This document shows, piece after piece, positions 47,781-64,000 of a DNA stretch of 64,000 nucleotides (within the stretch, counting starts at the first letter, position 1; each line of letters starts with the position of its first letter). The position numbers and the translations under genes were made by a program. Under the pieces are notes generated by a model that was not told where the DNA came from, made no database searches, and saw nothing but the letters and a program-made list of their open reading frames with translations. Source of the DNA: a virus. Where the stretch lies: positions 23,024 through 87,023 of the IMG/VR virus record IMGVR_UViG_3300011254_000489, one strand, 5' to 3'.

Positions 47781-48218
47781 ATGAGTTGGTGGAATATAAT
47801 AAAAACCGACTTTGGTTCGTTTGACTTGAAGGGATTAAATTTTCCAAGATTGGCTGAACTTTTACAATTTTATGATATGTTGGAAAAGGAGATGGTGGAA
47901 AGAGAAGATGTTAAAGACTACCCCGATGTGGATTTCTACACCGATGAAGTTATGGCTGGGGACGCAATAGGCTACATAGAAGATAATTTTATGAACGAGT
48001 CGGGTTCCGTGTCTTTAAGTCTATCCGTGGCGTTGAATCTTTTCAGTAGAATAAAAACTTACGGTGGGGAAAACTTTGAAATGCTTTGGAAAGAACTTAA
48101 CGATGAAACCATTAAATACTTTCTTTTAGGATTTTTAGGAAGGGCTGAAAGGGCCGGTGTTGTGGACATTCGGGGTAAATTAAAAACCGCCGTTGATAAT
48201 TTTTCAAGAGATGTTTAA
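47781..48218 (+). CDS. W-tag family protein (MSWWNIIK)
   Basis: GGTGA RBS; shared N-terminal motif. Confidence 0.65.
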   Translation: MSWWNIIKTDFGSFDLKGLNFPRLAELLQFYDMLEKEMVEREDVKDYPDVDFYTDEVMAGDAIGYIEDNFMNESGSVSLSLSVALNLFSRIKTYGGENFEMLWKELNDETIKYFLLGFLGRAERAGVVDIRGKLKTAVDNFSRDV

Positions 48219-48229
48219 GGGGTGCAAAT

Positions 48230-48583
48230 ATGGGTTGGGAAAATGTATTGAAGGTCTTTGGTGAGTATGGCTTTCCCGAAGGGGATGAGCGTAATGAGCA
48301 AACACGGAAAGCAAAAGAAAAATTTGCTAAAAACTCAATGGAAGTTTTGACAGGCCTTGCCTTTTCCTTAGAAACAATAGACGATTTAGAAGTAATAACG
48401 CAAAAACCTATTGGGTATCTTTTTGAAGAACTTGCTAAGTTATTAGAATTGAAAGCCGATTATTTAGAAGAAATTGCAGAAATTGAGGGAGATACTTTAT
48501 CTTCCCGAAGAGTAAGACCTAGTTTACAAGCATCCGAAAATAAAATGCGAGAATTGGCGAAAAAATTCCGAGCAAAATTTTGA
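48230..48583 (+). CDS. W-tag family protein (MGWENVLK)
   Basis: Shared N-terminal motif. Confidence 0.65.
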   Translation: MGWENVLKVFGEYGFPEGDERNEQTRKAKEKFAKNSMEVLTGLAFSLETIDDLEVITQKPIGYLFEELAKLLELKADYLEEIAEIEGDTLSSRRVRPSLQASENKMRELAKKFRAKF

Positions 48584-48603
48584 GAAAAAAAGAGATGATT
48601 GAC

Positions 48604-49179
48604 ATGACATGGAAAGATATAATAAAAGCACAACTAGCGATTTTAGATAGAGAAGATGCTAGAGATTTAATGAGACAGTATCGGGGAAAACAGGCAAAGG
48701 CACTTGGAAAAAATATTGCTTTAATTCAACAGAACCTACCCGATGTAGTTAAAGAATTTAAAATAATGATGGATAATCCCGTTAAGGGCTATGATGGTAT
48801 TCCTTCATATAATACAGTTGATGCTACGGCAAATATAATTCTTGTTATTGATTACAAACAAATGAATTGGAATATTAACAGTAATAAATTTGGTGGCTAT
48901 GATGAATCTTATTATGGATTAGATAGTACACTAGAAGAATTATTCCGAGGGAATCCTTTATCTTTTCGGAATCCTTTATCATCCACTAGCGAAGGCGGGG
49001 TAAGAAACCGAAAAAGAAAAGACACCTTTACCGAGAAAGGAGAAATAGTATCCTACCAAAAAACCTTCCCGTTCAAAGTAGAGTTTGATGCGTCAAAACC
49101 AATGCTATTCGGTGCAGAAAAACTAATTGATTTTTTAGATGAGTTAGAAGATTTACTAGATAGGGAAGTTAGTCCTTGA
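48604..49179 (+). CDS. W-tag family protein (MTWKDIIK)
   Basis: Shared N-terminal motif; start refined. Confidence 0.65.
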   Translation: MTWKDIIKAQLAILDREDARDLMRQYRGKQAKALGKNIALIQQNLPDVVKEFKIMMDNPVKGYDGIPSYNTVDATANIILVIDYKQMNWNINSNKFGGYDESYYGLDSTLEELFRGNPLSFRNPLSSTSEGGVRNRKRKDTFTEKGEIVSYQKTFPFKVEFDASKPMLFGAEKLIDFLDELEDLLDREVSP

Positions 49180-49193
49180 GAAAGGTGATTATT

Positions 49194-49451
49194 ATGACAT
49201 GGAAAGATGGAATTAAAAAAGAAGCGGCGGATTTTTCAAGAGGAATGGAAGCGGCAAAAAGCCTTGCTAAAAACCACGACCATGCCTCATGGTTTCAAGT
49301 TGAAAATGACGATGAGTTTATGGCGAAATTACAGAAGCGTTTTGATGAATCCTATGAGAAATACGGTGGGCAGGACATTAATGTTCGTGTTTTGATTAGG
49401 AGTATAGGGCAACTTAATGGTGCTTTTTTACATCTAACAGAGGATGAGTAA
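49194..49451 (+). CDS. W-tag family protein (MTWKDGIKK)
   Basis: GGTGA RBS; shared motif. Confidence 0.65.
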   Translation: MTWKDGIKKEAADFSRGMEAAKSLAKNHDHASWFQVENDDEFMAKLQKRFDESYEKYGGQDINVRVLIRSIGQLNGAFLHLTEDE

Positions 49452-49453: not shown

Positions 49454-49765
49454 ATGACATGGAAAGATGAAATTAGGAAAAACATATTTGAAAAAGACCC
49501 CGAAGACATGACTGCTTTTATGAATGTCAGTCCTCGGATGAAGCAAGAGGCTAAAAAGAAACAAGATAGCCTAAAAAGTGGTTTTAAAAACAATCAAGAA
49601 AACTATGAGACGGTTTTAGAAGCAATTGAGCGATTAATGGGATTAAAGGATTCAATTACTAGAGGTATGAAAGAATCTGAAGATGAGCAAATCAATGAAG
49701 ATGAGATGAGAAAAATTGCTATGGCTCTCAATAAAGCGGCTCAACAGTTAGAATCTTACTACTGA
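49454..49765 (+). CDS. W-tag family protein (MTWKDEIRK)
   Basis: Shared motif; 19-nt start region identical to previous gene. Confidence 0.65.
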   Translation: MTWKDEIRKNIFEKDPEDMTAFMNVSPRMKQEAKKKQDSLKSGFKNNQENYETVLEAIERLMGLKDSITRGMKESEDEQINEDEMRKIAMALNKAAQQLESYY

Positions 49766-49780: not shown

Positions 49781-50857
49781 ATGACTAATCAAGAGATAGG
49801 CGAAGCAACTGAAGATATTCGGGACTTTTTGGAACTTACAGAATCGGAGTGGAAGAGTTATTTTAATCGTTCTCAAGCAGGTAAGTGAGATATTCTTATG
49901 TTTCAAATTTTCTTTGCCGTAGGTAGCCAGCCGTTTAAAAATTTAGGCAGTGTTGATTATCTAACTCGTAATAGAGCCAAAACCGCCCTACACCATTTTT
50001 GGGGTATCGTTGAAGGTGATGATGAGAAGGGTGAATTACTAGGAGGCGAAGTACCTGTGCGATATGAGATTAGGGAAAAGAAGTCCGAAGATAAGTGGAA
50101 GGATATACTCAAGCGTCGGAGGGTAGAAGACCCTAGAGCAAGGAGCAAGCGTAATGAGACTACTAACTTTAGAATGTCCAAGCCCGCTATTGCAACTAAA
50201 GAAGAAATAGCGGAGAGAGAATACGATAGAAAGAGGCAATTTGCCCCTTCTGTTTCTAAAGAAGTAATACTAGCCCTTGTTGATAGGTACTCTTCCGCCC
50301 TTATTTTTTCAGTAGTCAAGGAAGAAACTTTGCCTATAATAGAAAAATACACTGATATGGATAAGGGCTATGACGACGATTACAGTAAAGATGGATTGGA
50401 ATATTTTGAAAACCTCTTCAAAAGGGGTAGTGGTTCTCCGACTGAGATTTTTAAAGAAATTAAATCATTAAATGATAAAGACTATCGTTTATTTTTAAAT
50501 GAGTTACAGAAAGAATTCAAAAATATTCGCAATTTATCGGTTTACAGGGGTTCGGAAGAAGACTATGAAACGGGTGCTAATCTTGGTTCAAAGGGTAGAC
50601 GCTCCGAAAGCAGTACTTGGCCTAACACTTTTAGATTTCTGTTGAAGGAGGATGAGACTTTCATCAACGGTTCGTCATACGAGACTGCTGATGAGTATTG
50701 GGAAGATAGAGGAATAACGGCTGATAAATTTTTGGCTGAATTAACTCCTGCTTTGAATAAGGCCAAATCTTCTTTACAGGGTAGGGGTTTATTTAATACT
50801 GCTAAGAAAGTATTTGGAGATTACAGTAGAAAGATAGTTAGGGGTGAGAAAAAGTGA
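49781..50857 (+). CDS. Hypothetical protein with internal KWKDILK tag; reading frame interrupted by one in-frame TGA at 49886
   Basis: Strong AAGGTGA RBS at 49781; 35-aa ORF is in frame with ORF 49898-50857. Confidence 0.5.
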
Positions 50858-51033
50858 GTTGGACTGATTTAGTTAAATATAGTGATAGGGAAGTTGCTTC
50901 TAAAATACAACAGACGGGTTTTTGTTCTCGTTGTAAGCGAAAGGTTAGAAAATATACAAAATGTCCTTTATCTTTACCTTCTCCTTCTACAGGTGTGAAG
51001 CCGGATTGTCCTATGAGGGAGGAAAAAACATGA
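50854..51033 (+). CDS. W-tag family zinc-binding protein (MSWTDLVK, 59 aa)
   Basis: GTG start after GGTGA; CSRC...C...C; not in ORF track. Confidence 0.6.
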   Translation: MSWTDLVKYSDREVASKIQQTGFCSRCKRKVRKYTKCPLSLPSPSTGVKPDCPMREEKT

Positions 51034-51266
51034 GTTGGAAAGATGATTTGACGCGTGATGGTATAACTGCGGAAATGAAGAGGCAACTTTTTGATATTTT
51101 GGCTAATCAGCCGGAAATTACTCTTAGGGGTATTGAAGAAGGCCTCTATAATCGTGGTTATCAAAGAGTAAACAGGAAAAAAATTAGGAAATTTATGATG
51201 AGTTCTCCAAAAGTGCGATTTAACAAGAAATATAATGACACTAGTACCTATTCATTGGAGAAGTGA
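51030..51266 (+). CDS. W-tag family wHTH-like protein (MSWKDDL)
   Basis: GGAGG RBS; basic helix-turn-helix pattern. Confidence 0.55.
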   Translation: MSWKDDLTRDGITAEMKRQLFDILANQPEITLRGIEEGLYNRGYQRVNRKKIRKFMMSSPKVRFNKKYNDTSTYSLEK

Positions 51267-51271: not shown

Positions 51272-51736
51272 ATGTGGTTTGATATTATTAAATCGGTTGA
51301 AATTTTGACCGAAAATTCGGCTAGCAAGATGTTAGACGGGTTTAAGACTGCGGTTGAGAAGGGTTATCCTGCAATTATTACTCCTTTGTCTCTTGTTGCT
51401 AAGATTCAAGATGGCGAATTGGCCGCTTTTACCTCTTTTAACGATATGGGCGAGTTTTTCTTTGTTGGAAATAGTTTAACTAATCCAAAATACAAGGGTC
51501 GGGGCTATTTTACTCAAATTTTGTCTTCTAGAGACGATTATACTAAGGGGAAGCCTAGAATTACTTTGCTAAATCCTTTAGATTCTAAGTCTAGGAGTAT
51601 TGTTAGGGCGGTTGTTACCAAAAAGGGTGGTAAGGAAGTGACTTCTTATGCTGATGTTCAAGATATTATGGATGAGCAGACCTACAAAGGGATGAAAAGC
51701 ACTAATTTAGATATGTTTAGGTACAAGGTGATTTGA
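51272..51736 (+). CDS. W-tag family GNAT acetyltransferase (MWFDIIK)
   Basis: T.PKYKGRGY GNAT motif A. Confidence 0.65.
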   Translation: MWFDIIKSVEILTENSASKMLDGFKTAVEKGYPAIITPLSLVAKIQDGELAAFTSFNDMGEFFFVGNSLTNPKYKGRGYFTQILSSRDDYTKGKPRITLLNPLDSKSRSIVRAVVTKKGGKEVTSYADVQDIMDEQTYKGMKSTNLDMFRYKVI

Positions 51737-51927
51737 TGACATGGAAAAATATACTCAAAATTAGTACCGAAGAGGCAATTCAAGATGCTGAGAGGTATGC
51801 AGACTCCGAAGATACTGAAATGGAAAAGGTAGCAGGGGCGGTAACTACATCAAGTGCGGCCCATTCCCTTCTATTTAGGCCGACCTTTGGCGGTAAGCGA
51901 AGGAAGCGCAAAAAGAAGGAGGATTGA
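51736..51927 (+). CDS. W-tag family small protein (MTWKNILK)
   Basis: GGTGA RBS; DAERYAD module shared with 52915; basic C-terminus. Confidence 0.6.
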   Translation: MTWKNILKISTEEAIQDAERYADSEDTEMEKVAGAVTTSSAAHSLLFRPTFGGKRRKRKKKED

Positions 51928-51929
51928 TT

Positions 51930-52913
51930 ATGCCTAAAGATGTAAAAAAGGTCACTGCTAAGGTTGGAGATGCCGTTCTTACTACTAAGGCGGGCATTAT
52001 TACCTTTCCTAAAAAGTTCACTGCTTGGGAGAGAAAGTGTCGTAGTTTAGGGCCGGATAAAGTTGGTGGTAAGACTCATCTTTTGGAGGCTTTGAAGCAA
52101 CATGGTGTTCCTACTAGACCTACTTCTCCTAATGCAGGTGGAGTAAAAGGGATGAAATTCACTTTGATGGAGATTAAAAAGGTGATAAAGAGTAGACCTA
52201 ATGGTATTTACTACGATAGTGATGTTGAAACCTTTCAAGAATTACTAGATGATTTAGATATTTACGGGGATGGAGGGCATTTAGACCCTGCTTCTATTCC
52301 TTTTACTACTTATCCTATGTCTAGAGGTAAGAGAATACCCGATGCTAAATCCAAACCCCTTTTCGGCCACTACATTGATGAATATTTTGCTTCAAAGTAC
52401 ACTACATCTGTTAAAGTTGAAGATGCTAAAGGTTGGAGTAGTAGGGCTAAAGATGGCTCGGCTAATCCTCCATTGAAACAGGCTATTTTTGGTGGGCCTC
52501 TATTTACTGAAAGTTTGAATGATATTTTGCAATTGGCTATCAAAGAGATAGGGAATATTGAATACAATATTGAGATTAAGACGGGGCGTTCTCCTGTTAG
52601 ATTAGTAAACATTCCTTCTTTTAGTTCAAAGTTAGCAGGTGCGATAAAATCTTCTTTAATTGATGGTGCTATTAGTGTCAAGGGTGTTAGAGGTAAAATG
52701 AATGGGATATTTTTCCCTATTAAGACTGAGAAGGAGGAATTATTCGTTGCTGATTATGCTAAGGCTAAAGGTATTGGTGGGACTTTTAGTTCTTTTAAGG
52801 TGAACATGACTCCTGCGGCAACCAAGAAATTAATTGAAACTTACATGGCTACTTCTAGGGCGCGCAAAGAGCGAGACATTGTGAAGTCTTGGGTAGAACT
52901 TTTGAGGGTTTGA
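51930..52913 (+). CDS. Basic hypothetical protein with C-terminal tag-like KSWVELLR
   Basis: GGAGG RBS. Confidence 0.65.
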   Translation: MPKDVKKVTAKVGDAVLTTKAGIITFPKKFTAWERKCRSLGPDKVGGKTHLLEALKQHGVPTRPTSPNAGGVKGMKFTLMEIKKVIKSRPNGIYYDSDVETFQELLDDLDIYGDGGHLDPASIPFTTYPMSRGKRIPDAKSKPLFGHYIDEYFASKYTTSVKVEDAKGWSSRAKDGSANPPLKQAIFGGPLFTESLNDILQLAIKEIGNIEYNIEIKTGRSPVRLVNIPSFSSKLAGAIKSSLIDGAISVKGVRGKMNGIFFPIKTEKEELFVADYAKAKGIGGTFSSFKVNMTPAATKKLIETYMATSRARKERDIVKSWVELLRV

Positions 52914-52914: not shown

Positions 52915-53376
52915 ATGAAGTGGGAAGACATTTTGAAGATTAGCGCAGGAGAAAGAAGCGATGCCGAAAGGTTCGCTGACCCCGAAGATTTGAGAATGGA
53001 TGATTCGGAAATGAGGGAGGTTGTTTTGGGCTATAGAAAGAGATTAAATTCTTTGATGAATAAGCCAAAGAAGATTGAAGAAACGCTAAATCGGGGGCGG
53101 CATAGTATTCCTCTTGTAGATGAGTTTTTGGAGCGTGAAGCGGAAGCCATAGTCGGTATGAATCTTGATTTCTTGGATGACAGGTTGAAGAGGATTGAAA
53201 ATGAAATGAACAGAGACTCGCCTAATATGTTTAAGTTGAAAAGAATGGTGAAGGCGTATGGAGAGGCTAAGAAAAATGCCTACAAGCCTGTTCGTGAACT
53301 TCTGCGAGAAAAGCAATATAGATTAAGTGAAGAACAAGAAAGATTGGCCGAGGAACGCCGAAAGAGATTTGAGTGA
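52915..53376 (+). CDS. W-tag family protein (MKWEDILK)
   Basis: Shared motif; DAERFADPED module. Confidence 0.65.
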   Translation: MKWEDILKISAGERSDAERFADPEDLRMDDSEMREVVLGYRKRLNSLMNKPKKIEETLNRGRHSIPLVDEFLEREAEAIVGMNLDFLDDRLKRIENEMNRDSPNMFKLKRMVKAYGEAKKNAYKPVRELLREKQYRLSEEQERLAEERRKRFE

Positions 53377-53385: not shown

Positions 53386-54039
53386 ATGAGAAGAAAAAGT
53401 TGCTCTTTTTGTCAGCATGAGAATGCTAAGGAGTTTGAACAACAGTTGGAAGACTGTGTTATTTCCTGTGATGATTTAGACCAACAGGAAAATTGGCGTA
53501 GTGGTACTGCGGCTCAACATCAAAGAAACCACATGGGGGATTATGTTACAAGTAGTAATCCTAAGTGTAATTTCTGTACTGACCCTCTAAGGAAACAATA
53601 TGAGGTTGGATTAACTGAGGGCAAGTTAGAAGTTTCTATTGTTGCAGATATTTTAGAGACTACTAAAAGTCAAATTCACCGACACATGAAGCATCATTTG
53701 GCTCCTATTGTTCAAGAGTCTGCCGCTACAATAATTGCTAAGAAGGAAGTTAATGAAGTTGATATGTTAGCCAATAACTTAGAAGTGTTGGATGGTAAAC
53801 TTACTGAGATTGCTTCAAGGGATGATTTAGATTCTAGGGAGTTAGATGCTTTGGTTAAGTTGGCTAGAGAGATTCGTGAGTCATTGAAATACATGATGGA
53901 GTTTAAGGGTAAGTTAATACACAAGAGACAGGACACAATAATTATTGCGCAGATGCAAATTGTCCAAGAAGTTTTGGCTCAAGGACACCCCGAAGTTTGG
54001 CTTGATGTAAAGAAGAAGATGCAGGAGAGATTACAATGA
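53386..54039 (+). CDS. Putative terminase small subunit / DNA-binding protein with two CxxC-HTH-H..H repeats
   Basis: CSFCQH...H.RNH and CNFC...H..HH repeats, then coiled coil; upstream of TerL. Confidence 0.5.
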   Translation: MRRKSCSFCQHENAKEFEQQLEDCVISCDDLDQQENWRSGTAAQHQRNHMGDYVTSSNPKCNFCTDPLRKQYEVGLTEGKLEVSIVADILETTKSQIHRHMKHHLAPIVQESAATIIAKKEVNEVDMLANNLEVLDGKLTEIASRDDLDSRELDALVKLAREIRESLKYMMEFKGKLIHKRQDTIIIAQMQIVQEVLAQGHPEVWLDVKKKMQERLQ

Positions 54040-54527
54040 GTTGGAAAGAAATATTGAAAAGTGATGATGACCATAAAAAAGTATTACAGATGGCTAAAAA
54101 GGTTCTAAGGGACTTAGGATTAGATGAAAAGTTTGTTGATGATAAAGCGAGAGATTTAGCGAATAGTGAGAAGTTATTTGACCATATTTCTTTTAGTTCT
54201 AGTAGTGAAACCGAAGGAGAAATGTATTCTCAAGTAACAGAAGAATCACTTAAAGACATGATTATGGCTGATAAAGGATTTTATCTTCCTAATTTATTAA
54301 ATCAAGATGAAAGATTTATACAACGAAAGAAAGAAGATTGGGATGAAGGTGGGCATGAAATCTTAATGGAATTATATGAAGCAATAAAACAAGGGGCTTC
54401 TTTACCAAAGTGGGCGGTTGTTAAAGATGGTGAATTAGATGATAGGGCGACTAAAGAAAAATATATTAATGAAGCCACAAGAGATAGAACATCTAATTAT
54501 TATGTCTATTGGTCAATTAGAGATTAA
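54036..54527 (+). CDS. W-tag family protein (MSWKEILK)
   Basis: Shared motif. Confidence 0.65.
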   Translation: MSWKEILKSDDDHKKVLQMAKKVLRDLGLDEKFVDDKARDLANSEKLFDHISFSSSSETEGEMYSQVTEESLKDMIMADKGFYLPNLLNQDERFIQRKKEDWDEGGHEILMELYEAIKQGASLPKWAVVKDGELDDRATKEKYINEATRDRTSNYYVYWSIRD

Positions 54528-54544
54528 ATGCAGGAGAGATTACA

Positions 54545-54958
54545 ATGAGTTGGAAAAAAATATTGAAATTAAGACCGATAGAGGATATACCCGATGAAAT
54601 GTATGATGATTCATATTCTTATCAAAATCCTAAAGAAATTGAGAGTTTGGTGAGAAGAAAACAAAAGAAGGGTGGACTACTTTGGTATATTGAAAAGGAT
54701 TTTGCACAAAACGCAAATGTGGCGGATTGGACTACTGATGAAGGAGTCAAAGCATGGGATACGATAGTTTCGGATTTGAAAAGAATTTACGATGATAATA
54801 ATTTGACACATAAGAACTACAAAAATGGAACTATTCTAGCGGGTAGAGAAGGCGTGGACAAATCTGTTTTTGCTATGATAATGAACCTAGACCCGAAGTT
54901 TGGTGCGCCTATAAGTGGTAGTCAATTTATGAGAGAAAATAAATTCCGAGGCTTTTGA
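54545..54958 (+). CDS. W-tag family protein (MSWKKILK)
   Basis: Shared motif. Confidence 0.65.
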   Translation: MSWKKILKLRPIEDIPDEMYDDSYSYQNPKEIESLVRRKQKKGGLLWYIEKDFAQNANVADWTTDEGVKAWDTIVSDLKRIYDDNNLTHKNYKNGTILAGREGVDKSVFAMIMNLDPKFGAPISGSQFMRENKFRGF

Positions 54959-54974: not shown

Positions 54975-55472
54975 ATGAGTTGGGAAGATATATTAAAACA
55001 AAAAACCTATGAGGTTTACATTAAAGACTATCGTAATGCTAAATCGTATCCTAATTGGACAAAGGTTAGTTTAAATATCGGCGGATATAAACAGAATGTT
55101 TTTTCTAGAGAAATAGCCAAGATGTTTTTTGAAGAAACTGCTTGGAATAAATCAATTATTAGAAATTATGGAAGACAACCCCTCCCTTCCATAGTTGAGG
55201 GAGATGAAAAGTCGGGGTATGTTGCTTCTTATATTATTGAAGCATACAGTCCCACACAACCCGATACGAGGTATGTTGATAAAAATGTTCTTTGGGAAAG
55301 TGGCCCTGTATTTGTTTACCAAATAGTTGAAAAAGGAGAGAAGCCTAGCGATTCTAATAGTCCCCCGTATAGTTTCAATTCTACCCTTAATGACATGAAA
55401 ACCAAAATTGAAAATTATGTAAGAATTGCTAAAAGATACGGTAATAAGAATAGTTGGAAGAGACTTGAATGA
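54975..55472 (+). CDS. W-tag family protein (MSWEDILK)
   Basis: Shared motif. Confidence 0.65.
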   Translation: MSWEDILKQKTYEVYIKDYRNAKSYPNWTKVSLNIGGYKQNVFSREIAKMFFEETAWNKSIIRNYGRQPLPSIVEGDEKSGYVASYIIEAYSPTQPDTRYVDKNVLWESGPVFVYQIVEKGEKPSDSNSPPYSFNSTLNDMKTKIENYVRIAKRYGNKNSWKRLE

Positions 55473-57084: not shown

Positions 57085-59610
57085 ATGGCTATACAAAAAA
57101 AGGTAAGATTAGACCAAGAAGCCTTTGATTCTTTGAATCTAACAGAGGAAGAGGTAATGGATGCCTTGTCCGGTGAACCTTTACAAGAGTACGAAAGGAC
57201 GGGTACTGTTAAGGTAGCACAAAAAGGTGTTAGAGATGTACTTTTGCCTATTCTAGAAAAGAGAATACAGGACATGGGTATTGAGTCTAACGAGAAGGGT
57301 AAGTCTTTGGTTGCTCTAACAATGTCAAAGGTCACAAGTATTCTAACTGAACCTAAGTTGATTAATTACATTAAAACAACCACAGGAGAAAAGGGTGAAA
57401 CAGATGCCGAGAGAAGATTAGTATTCCAAAGGATAATTAATAAATTATACAGTGGTGTTTTATACGAAGGTAGAAAGTTACAGGTAGAGGATTTTATTAG
57501 TGACATTGATTCTACTAAGGTTTCAAGGAATCTTAAAAGAACCATTACTACTTCTACGCTAGACAAAAGAAAAAATAGACTTTTAGAAGAAGAGGATGCT
57601 GACAATTATTCTTTTTGGTTAGATGAAAATTCGGTTAATATTAAGGCAATAGAAGACGGTTTGATTGCATTTAACAATCAACAAAGTGCTAAAAGAAGAG
57701 AAGGTATTTCTCCCGTAGTAGCAATTAGAGATGACATTCTAACTTTCATGGGTTCTACTTCAAAGAAGATTTTGGATAGGAAAGATACTATTTACAACAC
57801 TTGGAAACAAATTGAAGGTAGATTTGACGGTGTTAAAAAACAATCCGAGATAGTGAAGAAACAATTTGGTTTAGAAGACAATCACCCCTTTGCTAAGGCA
57901 ACGGCTGATTTAGAAAATTATGTTGTGGAGTATTCTCCTGTTTCAGTAAAAAGAGCAAATCCCGAATTGGTTGCTCTTGATTTGTTGGATGCTTTTATGA
58001 AAAGGTCGGGAAGAAATGTTTTTGAAACGGACACTACAATTACTATGGACTCTGTAGGTGCGCCTACTGTAGTAGAAGAAAGTAGGACTGAGACTGATAA
58101 GTTAGATGAGCAGAGTCAAATAACTAGGAAGGAAATAGAAGCGGCCAACAAAGGCTTAGGGGTTGCAGTAGACCCTATTTCTAGATACTACATGAATAAA
58201 ATGTTAGGTGGTGCTTTTATGGATGGAAGAGACACTGAGCGAATTATTGACTTACTCAAAGACTATTCTAAGAGAATTACTTTTGGTAAGCGTGATTATG
58301 AAAATCTAGATAAATTTATTGCTGATATTCCCAAAATTGCCGGTGCTAGTACTGACACAGTGTTTTTACCTATTCACTTCTCAAGAGGATTCTTAGATGC
58401 AGGGGATAATAAAATGGATTCCAAGATAGACCCAATAAATAAAATATGGCGAGAGTATTTTATGGCTTTAGGTGGACTAATTGAGCAGGGCTACAGAATG
58501 CCTAAGAAAACAGTAGATACGACACAAATAGGAACCATTGGAGAAGAGGTTAAAGGTGCAGGAGCGACAAAATATCCAAATACCTATGTGGCTCAATTTC
58601 AAGGAAGGCCCATGAATTTTAAAGAAACAAGTAAAGAACAGGCAGATGCTCTAAAGGAATTATTTGTTCGCTTGGAGTTGTATATGTTTAGTCCATTATC
58701 AAATCCATTTATCACGCTAGGATATAATTTTAAAGATATTAAGAAAACCTCAAGTTACAAAATCATGTCTGTTTATGCAGATAAAAATAATGTTTTGGAA
58801 GGAGAACTAACACAGGATGAAAACAAGAATTGGGTATTCGCAGGACAACCTTTTGAAACTAAAACAGAAGCGGAAACTGCAAGGTCAAAGGGTGCAACTA
58901 ATTCCACTAAGGCTATTTCTACACTATACCAACTTCTTGATAAAAGAGGGGGTAGCATGATTACCAATAAACAAATAAAAATCATTGAAGATTTTTTAGA
59001 ATCTCTTCGGGTTAATGTTGAGGTTGAAAGTGTCAAAACACAGACTAACAAACTATACAAATTTGTAATAAGAAGACTCTACAAAAAGGCAGGTAAGGGT
59101 TTCTTAGACCGAACAAGAGAAGGTCTAGGGAGACTTGTTGCTTCTGTATTCAATAAAATTAACGAAACAGGTAGCGTAACTACACTAGGAGTAGATAGTG
59201 CAGACTTCAAAGGCGAAGACTATGATATTGATGATGTAGTGGCGTTATTGGAATTGAAAGATTTCTTAGCAGAAAACGCAGATAGGCTAAACAATAAAAA
59301 GAAAGTAGAGACACTAGTAGGAAAATTCAATCAAATATCTAAGGCTAATCCTATCAAAAATAAAATCCTGCAAGCACACGATTCCTTTAGAATATTGAAG
59401 GGCTTGCCTATCTATTACGGTAGAGGACAAACAGATTCAGTGGAAGACCTTTCTAAAATGATTGATGTTGTGTATGATAAAATGGGTATTCATATAGTCG
59501 GTAATGAGATTGTTAAGATGGTGGAAGAGATTGATTCATTCACTTCTATTGCTACCAATGTTGGCGTGACAGAAGAAGTTGTCTACTTTGTCAAGGCTAA
59601 CTTTAGGTGA
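57085..59610 (+). CDS. Large hypothetical protein (841 aa) with C-terminal HTH-like motif
   Basis: SFTSIATNVGVTEEVVY HTH-like end. Confidence 0.6.
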   Translation: MAIQKKVRLDQEAFDSLNLTEEEVMDALSGEPLQEYERTGTVKVAQKGVRDVLLPILEKRIQDMGIESNEKGKSLVALTMSKVTSILTEPKLINYIKTTTGEKGETDAERRLVFQRIINKLYSGVLYEGRKLQVEDFISDIDSTKVSRNLKRTITTSTLDKRKNRLLEEEDADNYSFWLDENSVNIKAIEDGLIAFNNQQSAKRREGISPVVAIRDDILTFMGSTSKKILDRKDTIYNTWKQIEGRFDGVKKQSEIVKKQFGLEDNHPFAKATADLENYVVEYSPVSVKRANPELVALDLLDAFMKRSGRNVFETDTTITMDSVGAPTVVEESRTETDKLDEQSQITRKEIEAANKGLGVAVDPISRYYMNKMLGGAFMDGRDTERIIDLLKDYSKRITFGKRDYENLDKFIADIPKIAGASTDTVFLPIHFSRGFLDAGDNKMDSKIDPINKIWREYFMALGGLIEQGYRMPKKTVDTTQIGTIGEEVKGAGATKYPNTYVAQFQGRPMNFKETSKEQADALKELFVRLELYMFSPLSNPFITLGYNFKDIKKTSSYKIMSVYADKNNVLEGELTQDENKNWVFAGQPFETKTEAETARSKGATNSTKAISTLYQLLDKRGGSMITNKQIKIIEDFLESLRVNVEVESVKTQTNKLYKFVIRRLYKKAGKGFLDRTREGLGRLVASVFNKINETGSVTTLGVDSADFKGEDYDIDDVVALLELKDFLAENADRLNNKKKVETLVGKFNQISKANPIKNKILQAHDSFRILKGLPIYYGRGQTDSVEDLSKMIDVVYDKMGIHIVGNEIVKMVEEIDSFTSIATNVGVTEEVVYFVKANFR

Positions 59611-59614
59611 TGTT

Positions 59615-61042
59615 GTGGAAATAAGCGCATTTAACTTAGAACATGAAATGGATATTAAATTATCCCAACAATCATTTTCTTATTTTTTTGAGCATGTGTT
59701 AGGCTTTCAAATGACCAACCATCAACTTGAATGGTTGTCTTTAATGGATGAAAGTAATCGTAATGTCATCATTTGTAGTCGTGGTCATGGTAAGTCTGTA
59801 TTCATGCACAGTTGGGTAGTTTGGAATTTAATTTTTCAACCTGCTCCATACCAAATAGTGTATATGTCTTCTAACCAAAAGCAGACAAATATGCACATGA
59901 AGTCTATTGATAAGTTATTCAACAATCCTGTTCTTTCCAAGTATAAACCTACAGGTTCTAAGGGTTGGGCCGTTGAAGAAATGAATTTGGTCAATGGTAA
60001 CTCTATTGTCGCTCGCTCTGTAAACTCACAGGTTCGTGGTCTTCACCCTCAAGAAATTATTATTGACGACCCTCTAAAGGAATTTAGTTTGGTAGGTATC
60101 CAAAAAGTTACAGATTGGTTTTTCGGAGATATGATTCCTGCTCTCCACCACACTGCTTCTCTAAGAATCATCGGCACTCCGTTTTCGTACACGGATATTT
60201 ATTCTCAATTAGAGGAAAATACTCAATACCTTGTGCGTAAGTATCCATGTTTGAATGCTCTTAATGAACCGCTTTGGCCGGAACGATGGGATTATGATTC
60301 TTTAATGAATAGAAAGGCTGAAATCGGTTCTTTAAAATTCACAAGAGAATACATGTGCGTTCCTATTTCTACAGGTACTTCTCTATTCAATCCCGAATAC
60401 TTAGAGAAAGCCAAAAATAAAGGTTTAGTTTTATCTTCCCGAAGGAGAGAAGGCTACAAATATTATGTAGGTATTGACCCTGCTATTTCTACTGATGGAG
60501 ACTACAATGTTATTACTGTTTTAGAAGTAGATGAGCATGATAATAAATCAATTGTCTATATTGACCGAGCAAAGAATGTAGAATTTAGAGAAAACATACA
60601 GAAGGTTAGATTGATAGGCAAAGTGTTCAATCCCGAAGTTGTTTTGTTTGAGACAAATGTTTTCGCTAAATCCTTTACTCAAGAGTTAAGAAATATATCG
60701 GATATAAATGTTCACGACTTCAACACTACAAGAAAGAAGAAACAAGATATTGTTTTGAATTTACAGATGAATTTTGAAAACAGTAAAATACATTTACCCT
60801 ATGGTAATGAAGAGAGTAGGCGAGTTACTACTGCTCTTATTGAGGAATTATCTATGTTTTCTATTACAGATAAGGGTAAGTTTGAGGGTGTTGGGGCGCA
60901 TGACGATATGGTTATGAGCCTTGCTTTAGCAAATGCCGCCACACAAAAGGCTAGTGAAAATTTCTTATTGTTAGACGACTTGGGCTTATTTAGCGAGAGG
61001 CCACATAACCCGTATCAAGGCATTATGGGGCTTAATTTTTAA
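59615..61042 (+). CDS. terL: Terminase large subunit
   Basis: Walker A SRGHGKS, VRG, Walker B IIIDDP, GTP coupling motif, GIDPA and HDD.V.SLALA nuclease motifs; GTG start after GGTGA. Confidence 0.92.
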   Translation: MEISAFNLEHEMDIKLSQQSFSYFFEHVLGFQMTNHQLEWLSLMDESNRNVIICSRGHGKSVFMHSWVVWNLIFQPAPYQIVYMSSNQKQTNMHMKSIDKLFNNPVLSKYKPTGSKGWAVEEMNLVNGNSIVARSVNSQVRGLHPQEIIIDDPLKEFSLVGIQKVTDWFFGDMIPALHHTASLRIIGTPFSYTDIYSQLEENTQYLVRKYPCLNALNEPLWPERWDYDSLMNRKAEIGSLKFTREYMCVPISTGTSLFNPEYLEKAKNKGLVLSSRRREGYKYYVGIDPAISTDGDYNVITVLEVDEHDNKSIVYIDRAKNVEFRENIQKVRLIGKVFNPEVVLFETNVFAKSFTQELRNISDINVHDFNTTRKKKQDIVLNLQMNFENSKIHLPYGNEESRRVTTALIEELSMFSITDKGKFEGVGAHDDMVMSLALANAATQKASENFLLLDDLGLFSERPHNPYQGIMGLNF

Positions 61043-61051
61043 GGTGATTAA

Positions 61052-63025
61052 ATGGCTATTGCAACTACTGAGGAATTACAGGAGGCTAGTGATAAACTAG
61101 AAGAAGTTGCAGAATCACAAGAGGATGCAGAAAACGATTTAGATAACTTGTTTTCTAGTTTACAGAAAGGTTTGTTTATTCAGTCGGAACATGAAATTGT
61201 TAAGCGAATATGCAAGGAGTACAATATTAATGCTAGTCAAGCCAAAAGAAACATTGAATATTTTCCTCCTAAATATCAAATGTATGAGCAAGATATACCG
61301 GCGGTCATAAAAACCCTTAGAAAAGAAAGAAGGAGTCTCAAGGGTCAATACAGGGATAGCATGACTAAGAGCATTGATTCTTTAATAGAAGGATACAGTG
61401 AGCATATTGACAAGTGCATAGATAGTTTGTATTGGTTGCATCCTTACAAAACAACATTGAAAAAGATGACCTTCAAAGAATCGGATTTGAGAAAACTACA
61501 TTCTGTAAAAGAAACAGAAGGTAGAAGAAATATTGTAGATAGTCTTTGTAAGTATTGGGAAGCAGATTTGGATAAAAGAGAAGTGAATTATGGTAGGGTT
61601 TATGCTTCTTTAGATAAAGACATGAGGCTTGCTAAAAGCGAATTTAGAAAAAACTTGAAACAGATTCCCGATGTTGTTCTTAGAAAAAACATTAAAGAAA
61701 AGACTCAAGAGTTTATTTTAAAACAAGTTTGTGACAATCAAGGAATTAGTGCTAGGCAAATACATGATAGAATGCCTTCTCAACTATATGATAGAAACTC
61801 TTGGAATACTATTTCTAAAATATCCAAAGGGCTAGATATTGTTTCTTTAGAAGGCAAGTACTACAAACTTAATGGAGAGATAAAGAAAAATATTTGGGCC
61901 TATACTGCGGCTTTTATTGATTCGGATGGATATATTACAATGGATAGGAAATACAATCCTAGAGTTGGGCTTGTTGCTACAGGGGACAGAGGTAAAGTAT
62001 TCATGCAAGAAATTCATAAGGCGATTGGTTTTGGTAAGTTGCACCTTGACCAAAAATCACCTCAAGACACTAGGCCGGTTAATCGCTTAAATTTTTATTC
62101 CCAAGATGATGTTTATAATTTATTAGTTAAGTGTCTTCCTCATTTTAGAATGAAGGGGCCAAACGCACAACTTCTTTTGGAGTTAGTTAGAATAAAGAAA
62201 GGACACAAGAAGGCTAGTTGGTATAAAGATAGATGCGGCGAAATTTTTAAGTTGATGAAGTGGGAAAATCATCGTGACCATGTAGGTTTTGATTTTGAGA
62301 AAGAAGGTATTTACAAAGACGATATTCAAAAATACAGAGATAATTGTAAAATGTCTGTTATGGATTCATTAGAACAAATTGGTGGTATGGTTCTTAAACA
62401 AAAAGAATATGACCCCAAAGAGAATTTAAAAAAATATGGGACTAAAGATAGATTGCCCGAAAGACCCCCATATCAAAAACAAACTCCTGATTTTTTAAGA
62501 AGTCAAGGATATAATATCACTGAGGTTAAGCAAAAAGAATATGGAGATTATGTCGGTAAAGATAGAGACACTTATTCTCTTGCCTTAGTTAGAGGTATTC
62601 ATGCGGGTAGTCCTACATTGTATGATGATGAAGATAATAGATTAGATAAGAACTCATATGAATACGAACAACTACTTGAAGAATTAAAAGAAGCAACTGA
62701 GGATATTTTTAATCACAGTCAAGAATTATTTGATGCTAGAGAAGATTGGGCTATGGATGGTTGGGAAACTAAAACTAGAAAAGGCCGTAAATACAAAAAA
62801 ATGATGGACTATTATGATAAAAACTATCGCCCTATTGAAGAACAAAAAGAAAGGGAATTAGAAGAAAGAGTAGAAACCGCAAAGGATTTAATGTATAATA
62901 CTTACAACATGAATAGGAATCATCCTAAAGAATTACAACTACAACAATTGAAAATGTTTATGAAAGACAAACCCAAAGAATATCAACAGATAGTTGATGA
63001 TTTAAAAGAAGCAGGTGAATTTTAA
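61052..63025 (+). CDS. Multidomain head-region protein containing an embedded LAGLIDADG endonuclease domain
   Basis: AYTAAFIDSDG.I...P...FG...LPH...K..A LAGLIDADG domain preceded by wHTH (GISARQIHDR). Confidence 0.7.
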   Translation: MAIATTEELQEASDKLEEVAESQEDAENDLDNLFSSLQKGLFIQSEHEIVKRICKEYNINASQAKRNIEYFPPKYQMYEQDIPAVIKTLRKERRSLKGQYRDSMTKSIDSLIEGYSEHIDKCIDSLYWLHPYKTTLKKMTFKESDLRKLHSVKETEGRRNIVDSLCKYWEADLDKREVNYGRVYASLDKDMRLAKSEFRKNLKQIPDVVLRKNIKEKTQEFILKQVCDNQGISARQIHDRMPSQLYDRNSWNTISKISKGLDIVSLEGKYYKLNGEIKKNIWAYTAAFIDSDGYITMDRKYNPRVGLVATGDRGKVFMQEIHKAIGFGKLHLDQKSPQDTRPVNRLNFYSQDDVYNLLVKCLPHFRMKGPNAQLLLELVRIKKGHKKASWYKDRCGEIFKLMKWENHRDHVGFDFEKEGIYKDDIQKYRDNCKMSVMDSLEQIGGMVLKQKEYDPKENLKKYGTKDRLPERPPYQKQTPDFLRSQGYNITEVKQKEYGDYVGKDRDTYSLALVRGIHAGSPTLYDDEDNRLDKNSYEYEQLLEELKEATEDIFNHSQELFDAREDWAMDGWETKTRKGRKYKKMMDYYDKNYRPIEEQKERELEERVETAKDLMYNTYNMNRNHPKELQLQQLKMFMKDKPKEYQQIVDDLKEAGEF

Positions 63026-63738
63026 TGTGGTTTGATATTCTTAAAGTAAGAGTTGGCTCTAAGGTTCAGCAGGAAATGTCTACTTTAGCAGATAAAGTAC
63101 CTATACCTAAAATGGATAAAGATTTTGACTTTAAGAAAGAATATACATATGACGAATTTATACCATTATTAGAATTCGGTAGTAGTGTTGAATACGATTT
63201 AGAAAAGGTTCTTAAAGAGTTTATGTCCGAAAAATATAGAAATGAAAATTGGACTGAAGCAGACCGTAAGGCATTTAGGAGAAGAGGTGAGATGCCTAAA
63301 CCTTTTACTTTAGAAGAAGTAAAGGACAGGATTCTTTTTAGATTTGATACTGAATCTTTTGGTGTTAAAGAAGAAAATGGTAAAACAATTATTAATGTAC
63401 CTACATTTAAAGAAGATGTTGATAATCTAGAAACAAATGCCTTAGATGAATTATATTCGGGTAAAAAGCAAACTGCTAATCAACCTAAAAAACCTAAATG
63501 GTATACTGATTATAGGGCGAGAACAGCAAAAGACCCCGATGGTTATATTTCCGAAGAGATGAGAGATAATTCACCTCACATAAATTTGGCTAGGGTTTTG
63601 GATGGGTTAAGTAAATTACCTAAAGAAAGAAAGGGTTTCCATACACCATCAAAAAACAAACTACACCCTCAATACGGTAGATTTAGAGAACTTGAAGCCC
63701 GTAATAAAAAGGTGCATAGGAGAGAGGATTTAAAATGA
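63025..63738 (+). CDS. W-tag family protein (MWFDILK)
   Basis: GGTGA RBS; shared motif. Confidence 0.65.
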   Translation: MWFDILKVRVGSKVQQEMSTLADKVPIPKMDKDFDFKKEYTYDEFIPLLEFGSSVEYDLEKVLKEFMSEKYRNENWTEADRKAFRRRGEMPKPFTLEEVKDRILFRFDTESFGVKEENGKTIINVPTFKEDVDNLETNALDELYSGKKQTANQPKKPKWYTDYRARTAKDPDGYISEEMRDNSPHINLARVLDGLSKLPKERKGFHTPSKNKLHPQYGRFRELEARNKKVHRREDLK

Positions 63739-63760
63739 CTCGTAGTCAAAGGAGAGGTCT

Positions 63761-64000
63761 ATGATGTGGTTTGAAGAATTGAAGAAAGAGAAGGATGCCT
63801 GTTATCATAAGGTAAAGTCCCGCTACAAAAAGTGGCCTTCTGCTTATGCTTCGGGTGCTTTGGTTCAATGCAGAAAAGTTGGTGCAAAGAATTGGGGTAA
63901 TTCTGTAAAGAAGGCTAATCCTTTGAAAACATGGTTTGAACAAGAAGCCGAAGGTGAAGAAGGACAACCAAAGGTAAAGGGTTGGGTTTCTTGTCAATCA
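63761..64000 (+). CDS. W-tag family protein, partial (MMWFEELKK), with DACYHKVK.RY..WPSAYASGALV.CRK domain
   Basis: GGAGAGG RBS; frame open to window end; domain recognised from marine T4-like phage hypothetical proteins. Confidence 0.7.
   Translation, partial: MMWFEELKKEKDACYHKVKSRYKKWPSAYASGALVQCRKVGAKNWGNSVKKANPLKTWFEQEAEGEEGQPKVKGWVSCQS

What the first reader, a model, noticed from the sequence alone, without database searches (positions are those of the whole stretch)
47781..64000. About 15 unrelated proteins share an N-terminal M-x-W-x-x-(I/L)-(L/I)-K tag: candidate capsid-targeting signal for injected cargo
Seen: MSWWNIIK, MGWENVLK, MTWKDIIK, MTWKDGIKK, MTWKDEIRK, MSWTDLVK, MSWKDDL, MWFDIIK, MTWKNILK, MKWEDILK, MSWKEILK, MSWKKILK, MSWEDILK, MWFDILK and MWFEELKK, plus internal KWKDILK and C-terminal KSWVELLR. 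Sequences diverge right after the Lys and include a GNAT, a wHTH and a zinc finger. All lie around the terminase genes. Established analogy: T4 internal proteins carry a roughly 10-aa capsid-targeting sequence removed by the prohead protease. Inference: an archaeal-virus equivalent with cleavage after Lys, loading a variable arsenal (anti-defence, host takeover) into the head.
Basis: partly seen in the sequence, partly recalled or inferred. Interest (0 to 1): 0.88.

Follow-up and report, generated by a model that had tools for sequence, protein, structure and literature searches.

The report
Shared address tag on magrovirus proteins
About one gene in five of this ocean archaeal virus starts with the same eight-residue peptide, which resembles the tail of the virus's own capsid protease-scaffold and so most likely labels a fast-changing set of soluble proteins for loading into the virus head, although loading has not been measured.

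Summary
The window is the last 64 kb of a complete 87-kb magrovirus-like record. All 15 N-terminal tags, the internal copy and the C-terminal copy stand where reported; four more lie across the contig junction. A strict DNA pattern matches 8 times against 0.04 expected. In 80 related loci the tag opens 547 frames on the head-gene strand and none on the other, on 201 BLAST families. Ile, Leu and Lys codons vary freely, so selection acts on the peptide. The motif also occurs at C-termini and at joints between modules. That excludes a translation-start or DNA-site reading.

A matching M-x-W-x-D-I-x-K tail ends the S78 protease-scaffold (79 of 79) and a small head protein (49 of 49). Tagged proteins lack membrane segments, and one has a GNAT fold with a disordered tag.

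Best reading (about 0.5): a portable docking peptide copied from the scaffold tail that loads variable cargo into the procapsid, possibly clipped after Lys. Neither step is shown; the one complex prediction gave no verdict. A chaperonin-client reading and a ubiquitin-like-system reading were weakened, not excluded.

I found no paper describing the tag. This scan noted it before in at least seven other magrovirus genomes.

The parts
47781..48218 (+). tagged ORF, 145 aa, MSWWNIIK
   Evidence: no Pfam or PHROG hit
48230..48583 (+). tagged ORF, 117 aa, MGWENVLK
   Evidence: no Pfam or PHROG hit
48604..49179 (+). tagged ORF, 191 aa, MTWKDIIK
   Evidence: no family
49194..49451 (+). tagged ORF, 85 aa, degenerate tag MTWKDGIKK
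49454..49765 (+). tagged ORF, 103 aa, degenerate tag MTWKDEIRK
50093..50113 (+). internal copy KWKDILK inside the 319-aa ORF 49898-50857; a close relative (L004) has the same internal form
50854..51033 (+). tagged ORF, 59 aa, GTG start, SWTDLVK, Cys-rich
51030..51266 (+). ORF, 78 aa, degenerate tag MSWKDDL
51272..51736 (+). tagged ORF, 154 aa, MWFDIIK, GNAT-fold protein; tag residues 1-6 disordered in the model
   Evidence: pLDDT 87.5; residues 1-6 under 50; GCN5/GNAT chains, E 2e-5, TM about 0.5
51736..51927 (+). tagged ORF, 63 aa, MTWKNILK; shares a 14-residue leader after the tag with 52915
52884..52910 (+). C-terminal copy KSWVELLRV ending the 329-aa ORF 51924-52913; conserved in the closest relatives L005-L008, and similar K-S-W ends stand on 363-484-aa ORFs of other loci, whose orthology was not tested
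52915..53376 (+). tagged ORF, 153 aa, MKWEDILK
54036..54527 (+). tagged ORF, 163 aa, MSWKEILK
54545..54958 (+). tagged ORF, 137 aa, MSWKKILK
54975..55472 (+). tagged ORF, 165 aa, MSWEDILK
59579..61042 (+). terminase large subunit, untagged
   Evidence: phrog_38 E 6.9e-56; Terminase_6N/6C at the Pfam cut-off
61052..63025 (+). 657-aa untagged ORF with an endonuclease-like middle part
   Evidence: phrog_5046 E 3.2e-5; a LAGLIDADG insert in the magrovirus structural module is described in PMC5434244
63025..63738 (+). tagged ORF, 237 aa, MWFDILK
63764..64000 (+). tagged ORF MWFEELKK, runs off the window and contig end and continues at the start of the record

Best explanation
The 8-residue peptide (M)-x-W-x-x-[I/V]-[L/I]-K is a portable docking peptide. 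Magroviruses of this clade attach it to a large, fast-changing pool of soluble accessory proteins.

It imitates the conserved tail M-x-W-x-D-I-H-K-M-V. That tail ends two head-assembly proteins: the S78 prohead protease-scaffold, and a small protein encoded between portal and protease.

Inferred mechanism: tail and tag bind the same site on the inside of the assembling procapsid, either the major capsid protein or the scaffold core. Tagged proteins are thus co-assembled into the head, as T4 internal proteins are through their capsid-targeting sequence and as encapsulin cargo is through its loading peptide.

Where polypeptide follows the tag, the head protease may cut after the Lys. That would free the cargo, or separate modules of a fused precursor.

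Shown here: the motif, its peptide-level conservation, its position at either end or at joints, its confinement to the head module, its likeness to the tails, and the solubility of its carriers.

Inferred only: binding, packaging, cleavage and delivery into the host.
For: 1. Real and clade-wide.
- 8 strict matches in the window against 0.04 expected.
- 547 tagged frames on the TerL strand and 0 on the other, in 80 loci totalling 1.37 Mb.
- 5 to 14 strict matches on one strand in 16 of 16 related whole records; the reversed-pattern control gave 1 match in all.

2. Peptide-level selection. In 527 tags W is fixed by the search pattern, which also allowed only I/L/V/M at the next two conserved places and K/R at the last; within those limits I is 80%, L 78% and K 98%, with nothing conserved after the Lys. 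Leu uses all six codons, and Lys AAA/AAG matches the background.

3. Modular.
- 201 BLAST families, 129 of them singletons.
- 1 of 153 pairs alike in this genome.
- Carriers include a GNAT fold whose tag residues 1-6 have pLDDT under 50, a PAP2 domain and a Zn ribbon.
- The same domain occurs with the tag at its start (48 of 120 homologues), with the tag behind a 40-aa module (61 of 120), or with no tag (11 of 120).

4. Works at either end. The core motif counts are 665 near N-termini, 45 in the last 20 residues and 79 internal, in 645,718 aa. On the opposite strand the counts are 5, 1 and 3.

5. Head-module address. The tags flank terS-like, TerL and portal genes and reach towards protease and MCP. 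TerL, portal and MCP do not start with the tag, and the whole-genome scan found no tagged ORF between genome 4,755 and 70,804, the stretch that holds the rest of the structural module.

6. Likeness to assembly-protein tails.
- 79 of 79 complete protease-scaffold ORFs end in M-[DSN]-W-x-D-I-H-K.
- 49 of 49 homologues of the small head protein end likewise.
- 23 of the 150 best of 1178 S78 relatives end in [ML]-x-W-x-[DEQN]-[ILV]-[HNEDQ]; elsewhere in those proteins the pattern occurs once in 63,808 aa.

7. Precedents. The T4 CTS is described in passages of PMC7411985 and PMC9958956. A segment of HK97 protease gp4 carries GFP into particles (passage of PMC11626933).

8. Soluble carriers. 0 of 201 family representatives have a membrane-like segment, against 16 of 96 untagged ORFs of this genome.

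9. Not a cellular signal. The pattern gave 36 single, scattered matches in 596 Gb of genomes of 185,579 species, and at least 120 stretches in IMG/VR.
Against: - No measurement of packaging exists. The virus is uncultured, and I saw no virion proteome.
- Tag and tail differ at +4 (Leu/Ile against His).
- In other tag-bearing subgroups the tails diverge after W-x-[DE]-[IV] (..INAL....IHGL....VHEL....INEM..) while the tags stay ..ILK. There is therefore no co-variation.
- The initiator Met accounts for the shared M. Internal and C-terminal copies mostly have K at that place.
- Eighteen to twenty cargo species per genome, some of 700-1370 aa, is many for a head of this genome size.
- Tagged proteins show no charge bias of the kind expected for DNA-associated internal proteins.
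- Codon 2 is constrained at the nucleotide level (Ser = AGT 93% against 28% in the background). Part of the conservation at the very start is therefore not peptide-driven.
- The genes could be expressed early rather than late. Timing was not tested.
Confidence: 0.5

Rival explanations
1. The motif is only a processing site. The S78 head protease, or another Lys-specific protease, cuts after ..I-L-K to trim leaders and to separate modules of fused precursors. No role in addressing is involved.
For: Many internal copies are joints K-[KS]-W-x-x-I-L-K between a conserved 40-aa module and at least five different downstream modules. Lys is near-obligatory when polypeptide follows (656:9 and 73:6), but Arg is as common at true C-termini (16:14 among 30 distinct tails). 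HK97's protease cutting its capsid protein after a Lys is recalled, not checked here.
Against: Removing eight residues from some 200 unrelated proteins has no evident purpose on its own. C-terminal copies with 0-3 residues after them (25 of 30) leave nothing to release. The likeness to the uncleavable extreme tails of two assembly proteins points to binding.
Confidence: 0.12
2. The tag docks its carriers to some factor other than the capsid. One candidate is the virus's ubiquitin-like system (ThiF-type E1, JAB, small beta-grasp protein): W-x-x-[I/V] matches the core of Atg8-interacting motifs, and the Lys could be an acceptor. Other candidates are a chaperonin or a degradation machine. The tag would then control timing, folding or turnover of accessory proteins.
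For: A ThiF gene is present in this genome (PF00899, E 1.7e-16) and in 16 of 16 other records that carry the tag. It is absent from 5 of 5 records of the group without this tag. The Lys is 98% conserved. The Atg8-interacting-motif core is recalled, not tested.
Against: The co-occurrence is confounded by descent, since it compares one clade with another. The ThiF-less group has its own related tag, F-x-x-A-W-x-h-L-K (34 on the gene strand, 1 on the other), and the same protease tail. Tag-like systems therefore do not need ThiF. A complete record with 13 tags (G016) has no Cpn60/TCP1 gene, and only 6 of 11 records have one, which weakens the chaperonin version. An acceptor Lys would not be replaceable by Arg at C-termini. 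The tags sit in the head module, not beside the ThiF cassette.
Confidence: 0.2
3. The conservation is at DNA or RNA level: a translation-initiation or coupling context, or a recombination site that shuffles gene cassettes. The peptide would be a by-product.
For: Codon 2 starts with A in about 90% of tags and Ser is AGT in 93%, which fits ATGA stop-start overlaps. Modules are evidently exchanged at tags.
Against: Ile, Leu and Lys are kept through free synonymous change. The motif recurs in frame at C-termini and inside proteins, where no initiation occurs. It is never found in other frames or on the other strand.
Confidence: 0.03
4. All tagged genes are diverged paralogues of one ancestor that kept only its N-terminus.
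For: The genes are clustered and co-oriented. Two neighbours (51736 and 52915) share a longer leader.
Against: The carriers have different folds and sizes: GNAT, PAP2, Zn ribbons, and proteins from 45 to 1370 aa. There are 201 families with no detectable similarity. The motif can be C-terminal or internal.
Confidence: 0.03

Closest known systems
Capsid targeting sequence (CTS) of phage T4 internal proteins IPI-III and Alt (Mullaney and Black 1996, seen only as cited in passages of PMC7411985 and PMC9958956)
   Same: A short N-terminal peptide of about 10 residues is shared by otherwise unrelated, non-essential proteins encoded with the head genes. In T4 it suffices to load foreign proteins into the prohead core, and the prohead protease removes it. 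The cargo includes enzymes (Alt in T4; a GNAT-fold protein here).
   Different: No sequence relation was tested or is expected. The protease here is HK97-type S78, not T4 gp21-type. The motif also works at C-termini and at joints. There are about 18-20 carriers per genome and more than 200 families. The motif matches the tail of the protease-scaffold. The host is archaeal. Function is unmeasured.
C-terminal targeting part of the HK97 maturation protease gp4 (Duda, Oh and Hendrix 2013: title seen in the reference list of PMC7411985; content recalled; paper not held)
   Same: It is an S78-family prohead protease. A segment of it can carry GFP into HK97 particles (passage in PMC11626933). Here the protease-scaffold has an invariant C-terminal tail (79 of 79).
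   Different: In HK97 only the protease is known to use it. Here a look-alike peptide is spread over hundreds of accessory proteins, mostly at the N-terminus.
Encapsulin cargo-loading peptides
   Same: These are short terminal peptides that dock diverse cargo enzymes to the inner face of an HK97-fold shell, at either terminus.
   Different: Encapsulins have no portal, terminase or genome. Their consensus peptide is different. No homology was tested here.
Propeptide-bearing head and ejection proteins of giant phages such as SPN3US and phiKZ (PMC7411985, passages)
   Same: Many head-internal proteins carry propeptides, are cut by the prohead protease and are proposed to be targeted by them. The protease's C-terminal propeptide is proposed to target it to the prohead.
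   Different: Their propeptides are long and dissimilar to each other. Here one short invariant tag is used.

Membership tests
T4-type capsid targeting sequence system | One short N-terminal peptide shared by otherwise unrelated proteins | tested here: met
   527 tags with nothing conserved after the Lys; 201 families; 1 of 153 pairs alike
T4-type capsid targeting sequence system | Carriers encoded with the head-morphogenesis genes | tested here: met
   The tags flank TerL and portal and reach towards protease and MCP
T4-type capsid targeting sequence system | The peptide suffices to load a foreign protein into the prohead | not testable with these tools
   Needs a reporter-packaging experiment
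T4-type capsid targeting sequence system | The peptide is removed by the prohead protease | tested here: inconclusive
   Only indirect: the Lys against Arg asymmetry by position
T4-type capsid targeting sequence system | Prohead protease of the T4 gp21 type | tested here: not met
   The protease is Peptidase_S78, HK97 type (PF04586, E 2.2e-10)
HK97-type protease tail targeting | S78 prohead protease with a conserved C-terminal extension | tested here: met
   PF04586; 79 of 79 tails conserved; 23 of 150 distant relatives share the tail pattern
HK97-type protease tail targeting | The tail binds the capsid protein or its scaffold domain and is needed for encapsidation | not testable with these tools
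   Needs binding or packaging assays
Encapsulin cargo loading | Short terminal peptide on diverse cargo, usable at either terminus | tested here: met
   665 N-terminal and 45 C-terminal copies
Encapsulin cargo loading | The shell is a DNA-free nanocompartment without portal or terminase | tested here: not met
   Portal, TerL and an 87-kb genome are present
Atg8-interacting (LIR/AIM) motif | Core [W/F/Y]-x-x-[L/I/V] bound by an Atg8-type ubiquitin-like protein | tested here: inconclusive
   The tag fits the core pattern and ThiF is present. The partner was not tested, and a ThiF-less group has a related tag. The motif definition is recalled.
Secretion signal peptide | Hydrophobic core of about 10 or more residues after a charged N-region | tested here: not met
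   The tag is 8 residues and amphipathic; 0 of 201 carriers have a hydrophobic 19-residue window of 1.6 or more
Magrovirus (virus of Marine Group II archaea) | About 100-kb head-tail genome with PolB and a chaperonin, a second ligase and an endonuclease inside the structural module, and tRNA-Leu and tRNA-Arg | tested here: met
   Searches set against passages of PMC5434244. No named reference genome was available for direct comparison: the best hit in GenBank phages was 28% for TerL.

The most novel reading that the evidence does not exclude
A true virus runs an encapsulin-like cargo-loading system. A 6-8-residue peptide copied from the scaffold's capsid-binding tail works at either end of a protein or between modules. 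With it the virus loads a freely exchangeable arsenal into the head: ten to twenty proteins per genome, drawn from hundreds of families and including enzymes such as a GNAT-fold protein and a PAP2 phosphatase. A Lys-specific cut by the HK97-type protease releases them for delivery into Marine Group II archaea. The tag also acts as the seam at which modules are recombined.
Probability: 0.3. Interest if true: 0.85.

Novelty: new variant of a known kind. Interest (0 to 1): 0.75.

Why it matters
Magroviruses are among the most abundant archaeal viruses of the surface ocean, and none is cultured. Most of their genes have no known function.

A single address tag would assign a common fate to roughly a fifth of each genome. 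It would point to the set of proteins most likely delivered into the host at infection. It would also give a simple sequence rule for finding such cargo in metagenomes.

The tag would offer a minimal packaging peptide for HK97-fold shells. It would also offer a natural bridge between viral scaffold-capsid contacts and encapsulin cargo loading.

The idea can be tested without the virus, by co-expressing capsid protein, protease-scaffold and a tagged reporter.

Tried and rejected
Complex prediction. MCP (alignment A1, 62 rows) was folded against a 40-residue tagged N-terminus. The partner's 'alignment' A2 was my own stack of 100 non-homologous tagged N-termini. The score was 0.00, the verdict was no answer, and no controls were run. 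This is neither for nor against binding.

Fold of the 133-aa tagged family at genome 522-923 (A3, 31 rows). Mean pLDDT was 41.7, so the model is unusable.

Charge bias of carriers. None found: the median pI of family representatives is 6.5, with 34% above 9 and 47% below 6.

Function of carriers by Pfam and PHROGs. Nearly all came back empty.

Homologue search for untagged distant relatives. Only the 120 best of about 8000 were listed, and all are close.

Cluster look-up of ten distant proteases. All are metagenomic, and two are named HK97-family prohead protease.

Cultured relatives. Haloviruses HVTV-1, HCTV-1 and HCTV-5 share only 30% of the protease domain. In HVTV-1, the only one read, I saw no tail motif and no tags.

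Host control through the thermosome in genome contigs. No relative was found, so no Marine Group II genome was scanned on its own.

Co-variation of tail and tag across subgroups. None found.

Literature.
- No hit for six 8-letter tag words.
- No hit for 'capsid targeting sequence' together with 'archaeal virus'.
- The terms N-terminal, propeptide and scaffold found nothing relevant in PMC5434244 and PMC11706807; 'motif' occurs twice in PMC11706807 (a helix-turn-helix mention) and 'targeting' four times, none about this tag. In PMC10160649 the terms N-terminal, motif, signal peptide, conserved sequence and hypothetical found nothing.
- These were term searches within the papers, not full readings.
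- Their supplementary tables were not opened and could hold gene-level notes.
- The claim 'not in print' rests on these searches only.

Full report
WHAT THE WINDOW IS.

The window is bases 23,024-87,023 of an 87,023-bp IMG/VR virus record that CheckV rates 100% complete. The record's two ends share 10 nt, so the assembly closes on itself. The last ORF of the window therefore continues at the start of the record.

Gene content:
- Family-B DNA polymerase, an ATP-dependent ligase, a thermosome-type chaperonin and a UvrD helicase.
- tRNA-Leu and tRNA-Arg.
- TerL (phrog_38, E 6.9e-56).
- Just across the junction: a portal (phrog_18178, E 1.1e-64), a second ligase inside the structural module (PF01068, E 1.3e-29), an S78 prohead protease with a long C-terminal scaffold-like extension (PF04586, E 2.2e-10) and an MCP (phrog_24667, E 1.4e-20).

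This matches the description of magroviruses in passages of PMC5434244: head-tail genomes of about 100 kb, an archaeal-type replisome, a chaperonin, and a second ligase and an endonuclease inside the structural module. GenBank phages hold no close relative; the best TerL identity is 28%. The assignment therefore rests on gene content.

THE OBSERVATION.

The same holds for the internal KWKDILK (50093-50113) and the C-terminal KSWVELLRV (52884-52910). Three tags are degenerate (49194, 49454, 51030).

A strict DNA rendering of M-x-W-x-x-[IV]-x-K matches 8 times against 0.04 expected; 0 of 100 shuffles reached 8.

Across the contig junction four more tagged ORFs lie at genome 133, 522, 920 and 4755. 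A near-variant, MSFMDILK, starts the 545-aa ORF after the portal.

With tags removed, only 1 of 153 pairs among the genome's 18 tagged proteins is alike at E<=0.01, and that pair shares just a 14-residue leader. The 18 proteins sum to 2,321 aa.

HOW WIDE IT IS.

Of 348 IMG/VR stretches that encode a TerL relative, the best 80 were kept (71-98% identity).
- In their 1.37 Mb, the tag followed by at least 40 open codons occurs 547 times on the TerL strand and never on the other. 71 of 80 loci have three or more, and 3 have none.
- The logo from 527 tags is M, [S/N/T], W, [K/E/Q], [D/E/N], I (80%), L (78%), K (98%). The search pattern fixed W and allowed only I/L/V/M and K/R at the last three places. 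Nothing is conserved beyond the Lys.
- With the tag removed, the proteins fall into 201 BLAST families, 129 of them singletons.

Sixteen of 16 related whole records carry 5-14 strict matches, all on one strand and mostly within about 20 kb. The reversed pattern matched once in all.

Subgroups whose protease is only 42-51% identical to ours still carry canonical tags.

In 596 Gb of genomes from 185,579 bacterial and archaeal species it gave 36 single, scattered matches, about what I estimate for chance. None was clustered and none was in a Poseidoniales record. The tag is therefore a viral device, not a host signal.

PEPTIDE OR NUCLEOTIDE?

I took one representative per family.
- Leu at +4 uses all six codons: CTA 29%, TTG 28%, TTA 23%, CTT 12%, CTC 4%, CTG 3%.
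- Ile uses ATA and ATT.
- Lys uses AAA and AAG at 72:28, against 73:27 in the background.

Selection is thus on the amino acids.

The first codons are different. Ser at codon 2 is AGT in 93% (background 28%), and about 90% of second codons begin with A. This fits ATGA stop-start overlaps or an initiation context. The identity of residue 2 may therefore be a nucleotide matter.

POSITION.

The core W-x-x-[ILV]-[ILV]-[KR] was counted in 2,725 ORFs (645,718 aa) on the gene strand:
- 665 times within 30 residues of the start,
- 45 times within the last 20 residues,
- 79 times internally.

On the other strand the counts are 5, 1 and 3.

C-terminal copies such as the end of window ORF 51924-52913 recur in the closest relatives (L005-L008), and similar K-S-W ends stand on 363-484-aa ORFs of other loci. 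I did not test whether those are orthologues.

Many internal copies are joints K-[KS]-W-x-x-I-L-K. Among the 120 closest homologues of one carrier domain:
- 48 have the tag at the very start,
- 61 have it behind a conserved module of about 40 aa,
- 11 have none.

That 40-aa module is joined through the tag to at least five different downstream modules.

A motif that works at either end and at seams is an autonomous peptide element. It cannot be a translation-start signal.

LINK TO HEAD ASSEMBLY.

The protease-scaffold of this genome ends in ..E-M-D-W-S-D-I-H-K-M-V-S-G-N-I. All 79 complete homologues among 80 related loci end in M-[DSN]-W-x-D-I-H-K plus about six residues.

A 74-aa ORF between portal and protease ends the same way. 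So do all 49 of its homologues found in 49 of those 80 loci.

A phmmer search of 1.84 billion representatives found 1178 relatives of the protease-scaffold. 23 of the best 150 end in [ML]-x-W-x-[DEQN]-[ILV]-[HNEDQ]. Elsewhere in those proteins the pattern occurs once in 63,808 aa.

The tail is therefore an old feature of this protease-scaffold lineage. The accessory-protein tag shares with it M(-2), small or polar (-1), W(0), acidic (+2) and I/V(+3). Within our subgroup it also shares K(+5). It differs at +4.

Two precedents exist:
- A segment of HK97's S78 protease can carry GFP into HK97 particles (passage in PMC11626933). The primary paper is not held, and what I say of it is recalled.
- The T4 CTS loads unrelated internal proteins and foreign proteins into the prohead (passages in PMC7411985 and PMC9958956).

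THE CARRIERS.

None of the 201 family representatives has a membrane-like hydrophobic window, against 16 of 96 untagged ORFs of this genome. The untagged set includes some spurious ORFs.

The 154-aa protein at 51272-51736 folds with pLDDT 87.5. The exception is residues 1-6, the tag, which are under 50. The model matches GCN5 and GNAT acetyltransferases (E about 2e-5, TM about 0.5).

Other carriers are a PAP2 domain (E 1.2e-12) and a DUF5754 Zn ribbon. Most have no family. There is no charge bias.

A HINT OF CLEAVAGE.

The last residue of the motif depends on position:
- N-termini: Lys 656, Arg 9.
- Internal: Lys 73, Arg 6.
- 30 distinct C-terminal tails: Arg 16, Lys 14. 25 of these have at most three residues after the motif.

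The background Lys to Arg ratio is about 2:1.

Lys thus seems needed only when something follows it, as expected if a protease cuts there. The C-terminal set comes from few families, so this is a hint and no more.

RIVALS TESTED.

(a) DNA or RNA element. Rejected, as argued above.

(b) Chaperonin client tag. A complete record with 13 tags has no Cpn60/TCP1 gene, and only 6 of 11 further records have one.

(c) Viral ubiquitin-like system.
- ThiF is in this genome and in 16 of 16 other tag-bearing records.
- It is absent from 5 of 5 records of a group whose protease is 43% identical. That group has no M-x-W-x-x-I-L-K tag: 0 in 947 kb around the protease apart from 10 antisense artefacts, and 0 strict matches in five whole records.
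- That group has its own terminal peptide, F-x-x-A-W-x-h-L-K, with 34 copies on the gene strand and 1 on the other. It also has the same kind of protease tail.
- Tag systems therefore exist without ThiF, and the co-occurrence is one clade against another. This rival is weakened, not excluded.

(d) Paralogy. Rejected by the diversity of folds and positions.

WHAT REMAINS OPEN.

Nothing here shows binding, packaging, cleavage or injection.
- Tails diverge between subgroups while tags stay constant, so there is no co-variation to lean on.
- The receptor could be the MCP, the scaffold core, the portal or something else.
- Expression timing is unknown.
- Supplementary files of the magrovirus papers were not opened.

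EARLIER NOTES OF THIS SCAN.

A note on the first 23 kb of this same genome pointed to the protease C-terminus. I checked that lead and extended it.

At least seven other magrovirus genomes were noted before with the same reading. One of them had the variant F/P-h-D-x-A-W-x-h-L-K tag, which I saw independently in L186-L232. My scores rest on my own calls.

VERDICT.

The tag is a clade-wide, peptide-level, position-independent address-like element on hundreds of unrelated soluble proteins in the head module.

The most likely reading is a capsid cargo-loading peptide modelled on the scaffold tail (about 0.5), perhaps with cleavage after Lys (about 0.3). I class it as a new variant of a known kind, and I found no paper describing it in the searches named above.

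Noticed in passing
loci L186, L194, L196, L207, L213-L218, L224, L227, L231, L232 (group of protease P0010), about 3-4 kb downstream of the protease: A second, related terminal peptide, F-x-x-A-W-x-[VIL]-L-K, stands at starts, ends and joints of accessory ORFs. It has 34 copies on the gene strand and 1 on the other. This group lacks the M-x-W-x-x-I-L-K tag and ThiF.
   Followed up: partly
window 63764-64000 and the first bases of the record: The record's ends overlap by 10 nt, and a tagged ORF runs across the junction. The 'linear' record is therefore a closed or terminally redundant assembly.
   Followed up: partly
window 54015-54060, 54525-54570, 54955-55000: Nearly the same leader of about 40 bp (RBS plus tag codons) precedes three consecutive unrelated genes. 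This suggests recent cassette addition by recombination at the tag.
   Followed up: partly
tags of L004-L083: Codon 2 of tagged genes is Ser-AGT in 93% (background 28%), and about 90% of second codons start with A. This fits ATGA stop-start overlaps between neighbouring genes.
   Followed up: partly
genome 8360-9538 (outside the window), around residues 175-187 of the protease-scaffold: The protease domain ends in ..F-D-I-L-K. At exactly this point other viruses split the gene: P0014-P0016 and P0056 are scaffold-only proteins that start there. It may be a self-cleavage site with the same I-L-K ending as the tag.
   Followed up: no
P0004, P0006, P0012, P0019, P0044, P0094 and the tails of L084-L163: Many protease-scaffold tails end in G-G plus 1-3 residues. 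This recalls processed ubiquitin-like C-termini. It is unexplained.
   Followed up: no
window 33096-33671 (minus strand): A ThiF-type E1-like gene (PF00899, E 1.7e-16) lies next to a TFIIB-like ORF. It is present in 16 of 16 other tag-bearing records and in 0 of 5 records of the other group.
   Followed up: partly
P0159, P0179-P0190 and loci L049, L053, L066-L070, L075, L083: A conserved 40-aa N-terminal module ending in ..A-S-G-Y-V-K-K is fused in frame, through the tag, to at least five different downstream modules.
   Followed up: partly
window 51736-51927 and 52915-53376: Two tagged ORFs share a further 14-residue acidic leader right after the tag, although the rest of the proteins differ.
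   Followed up: no
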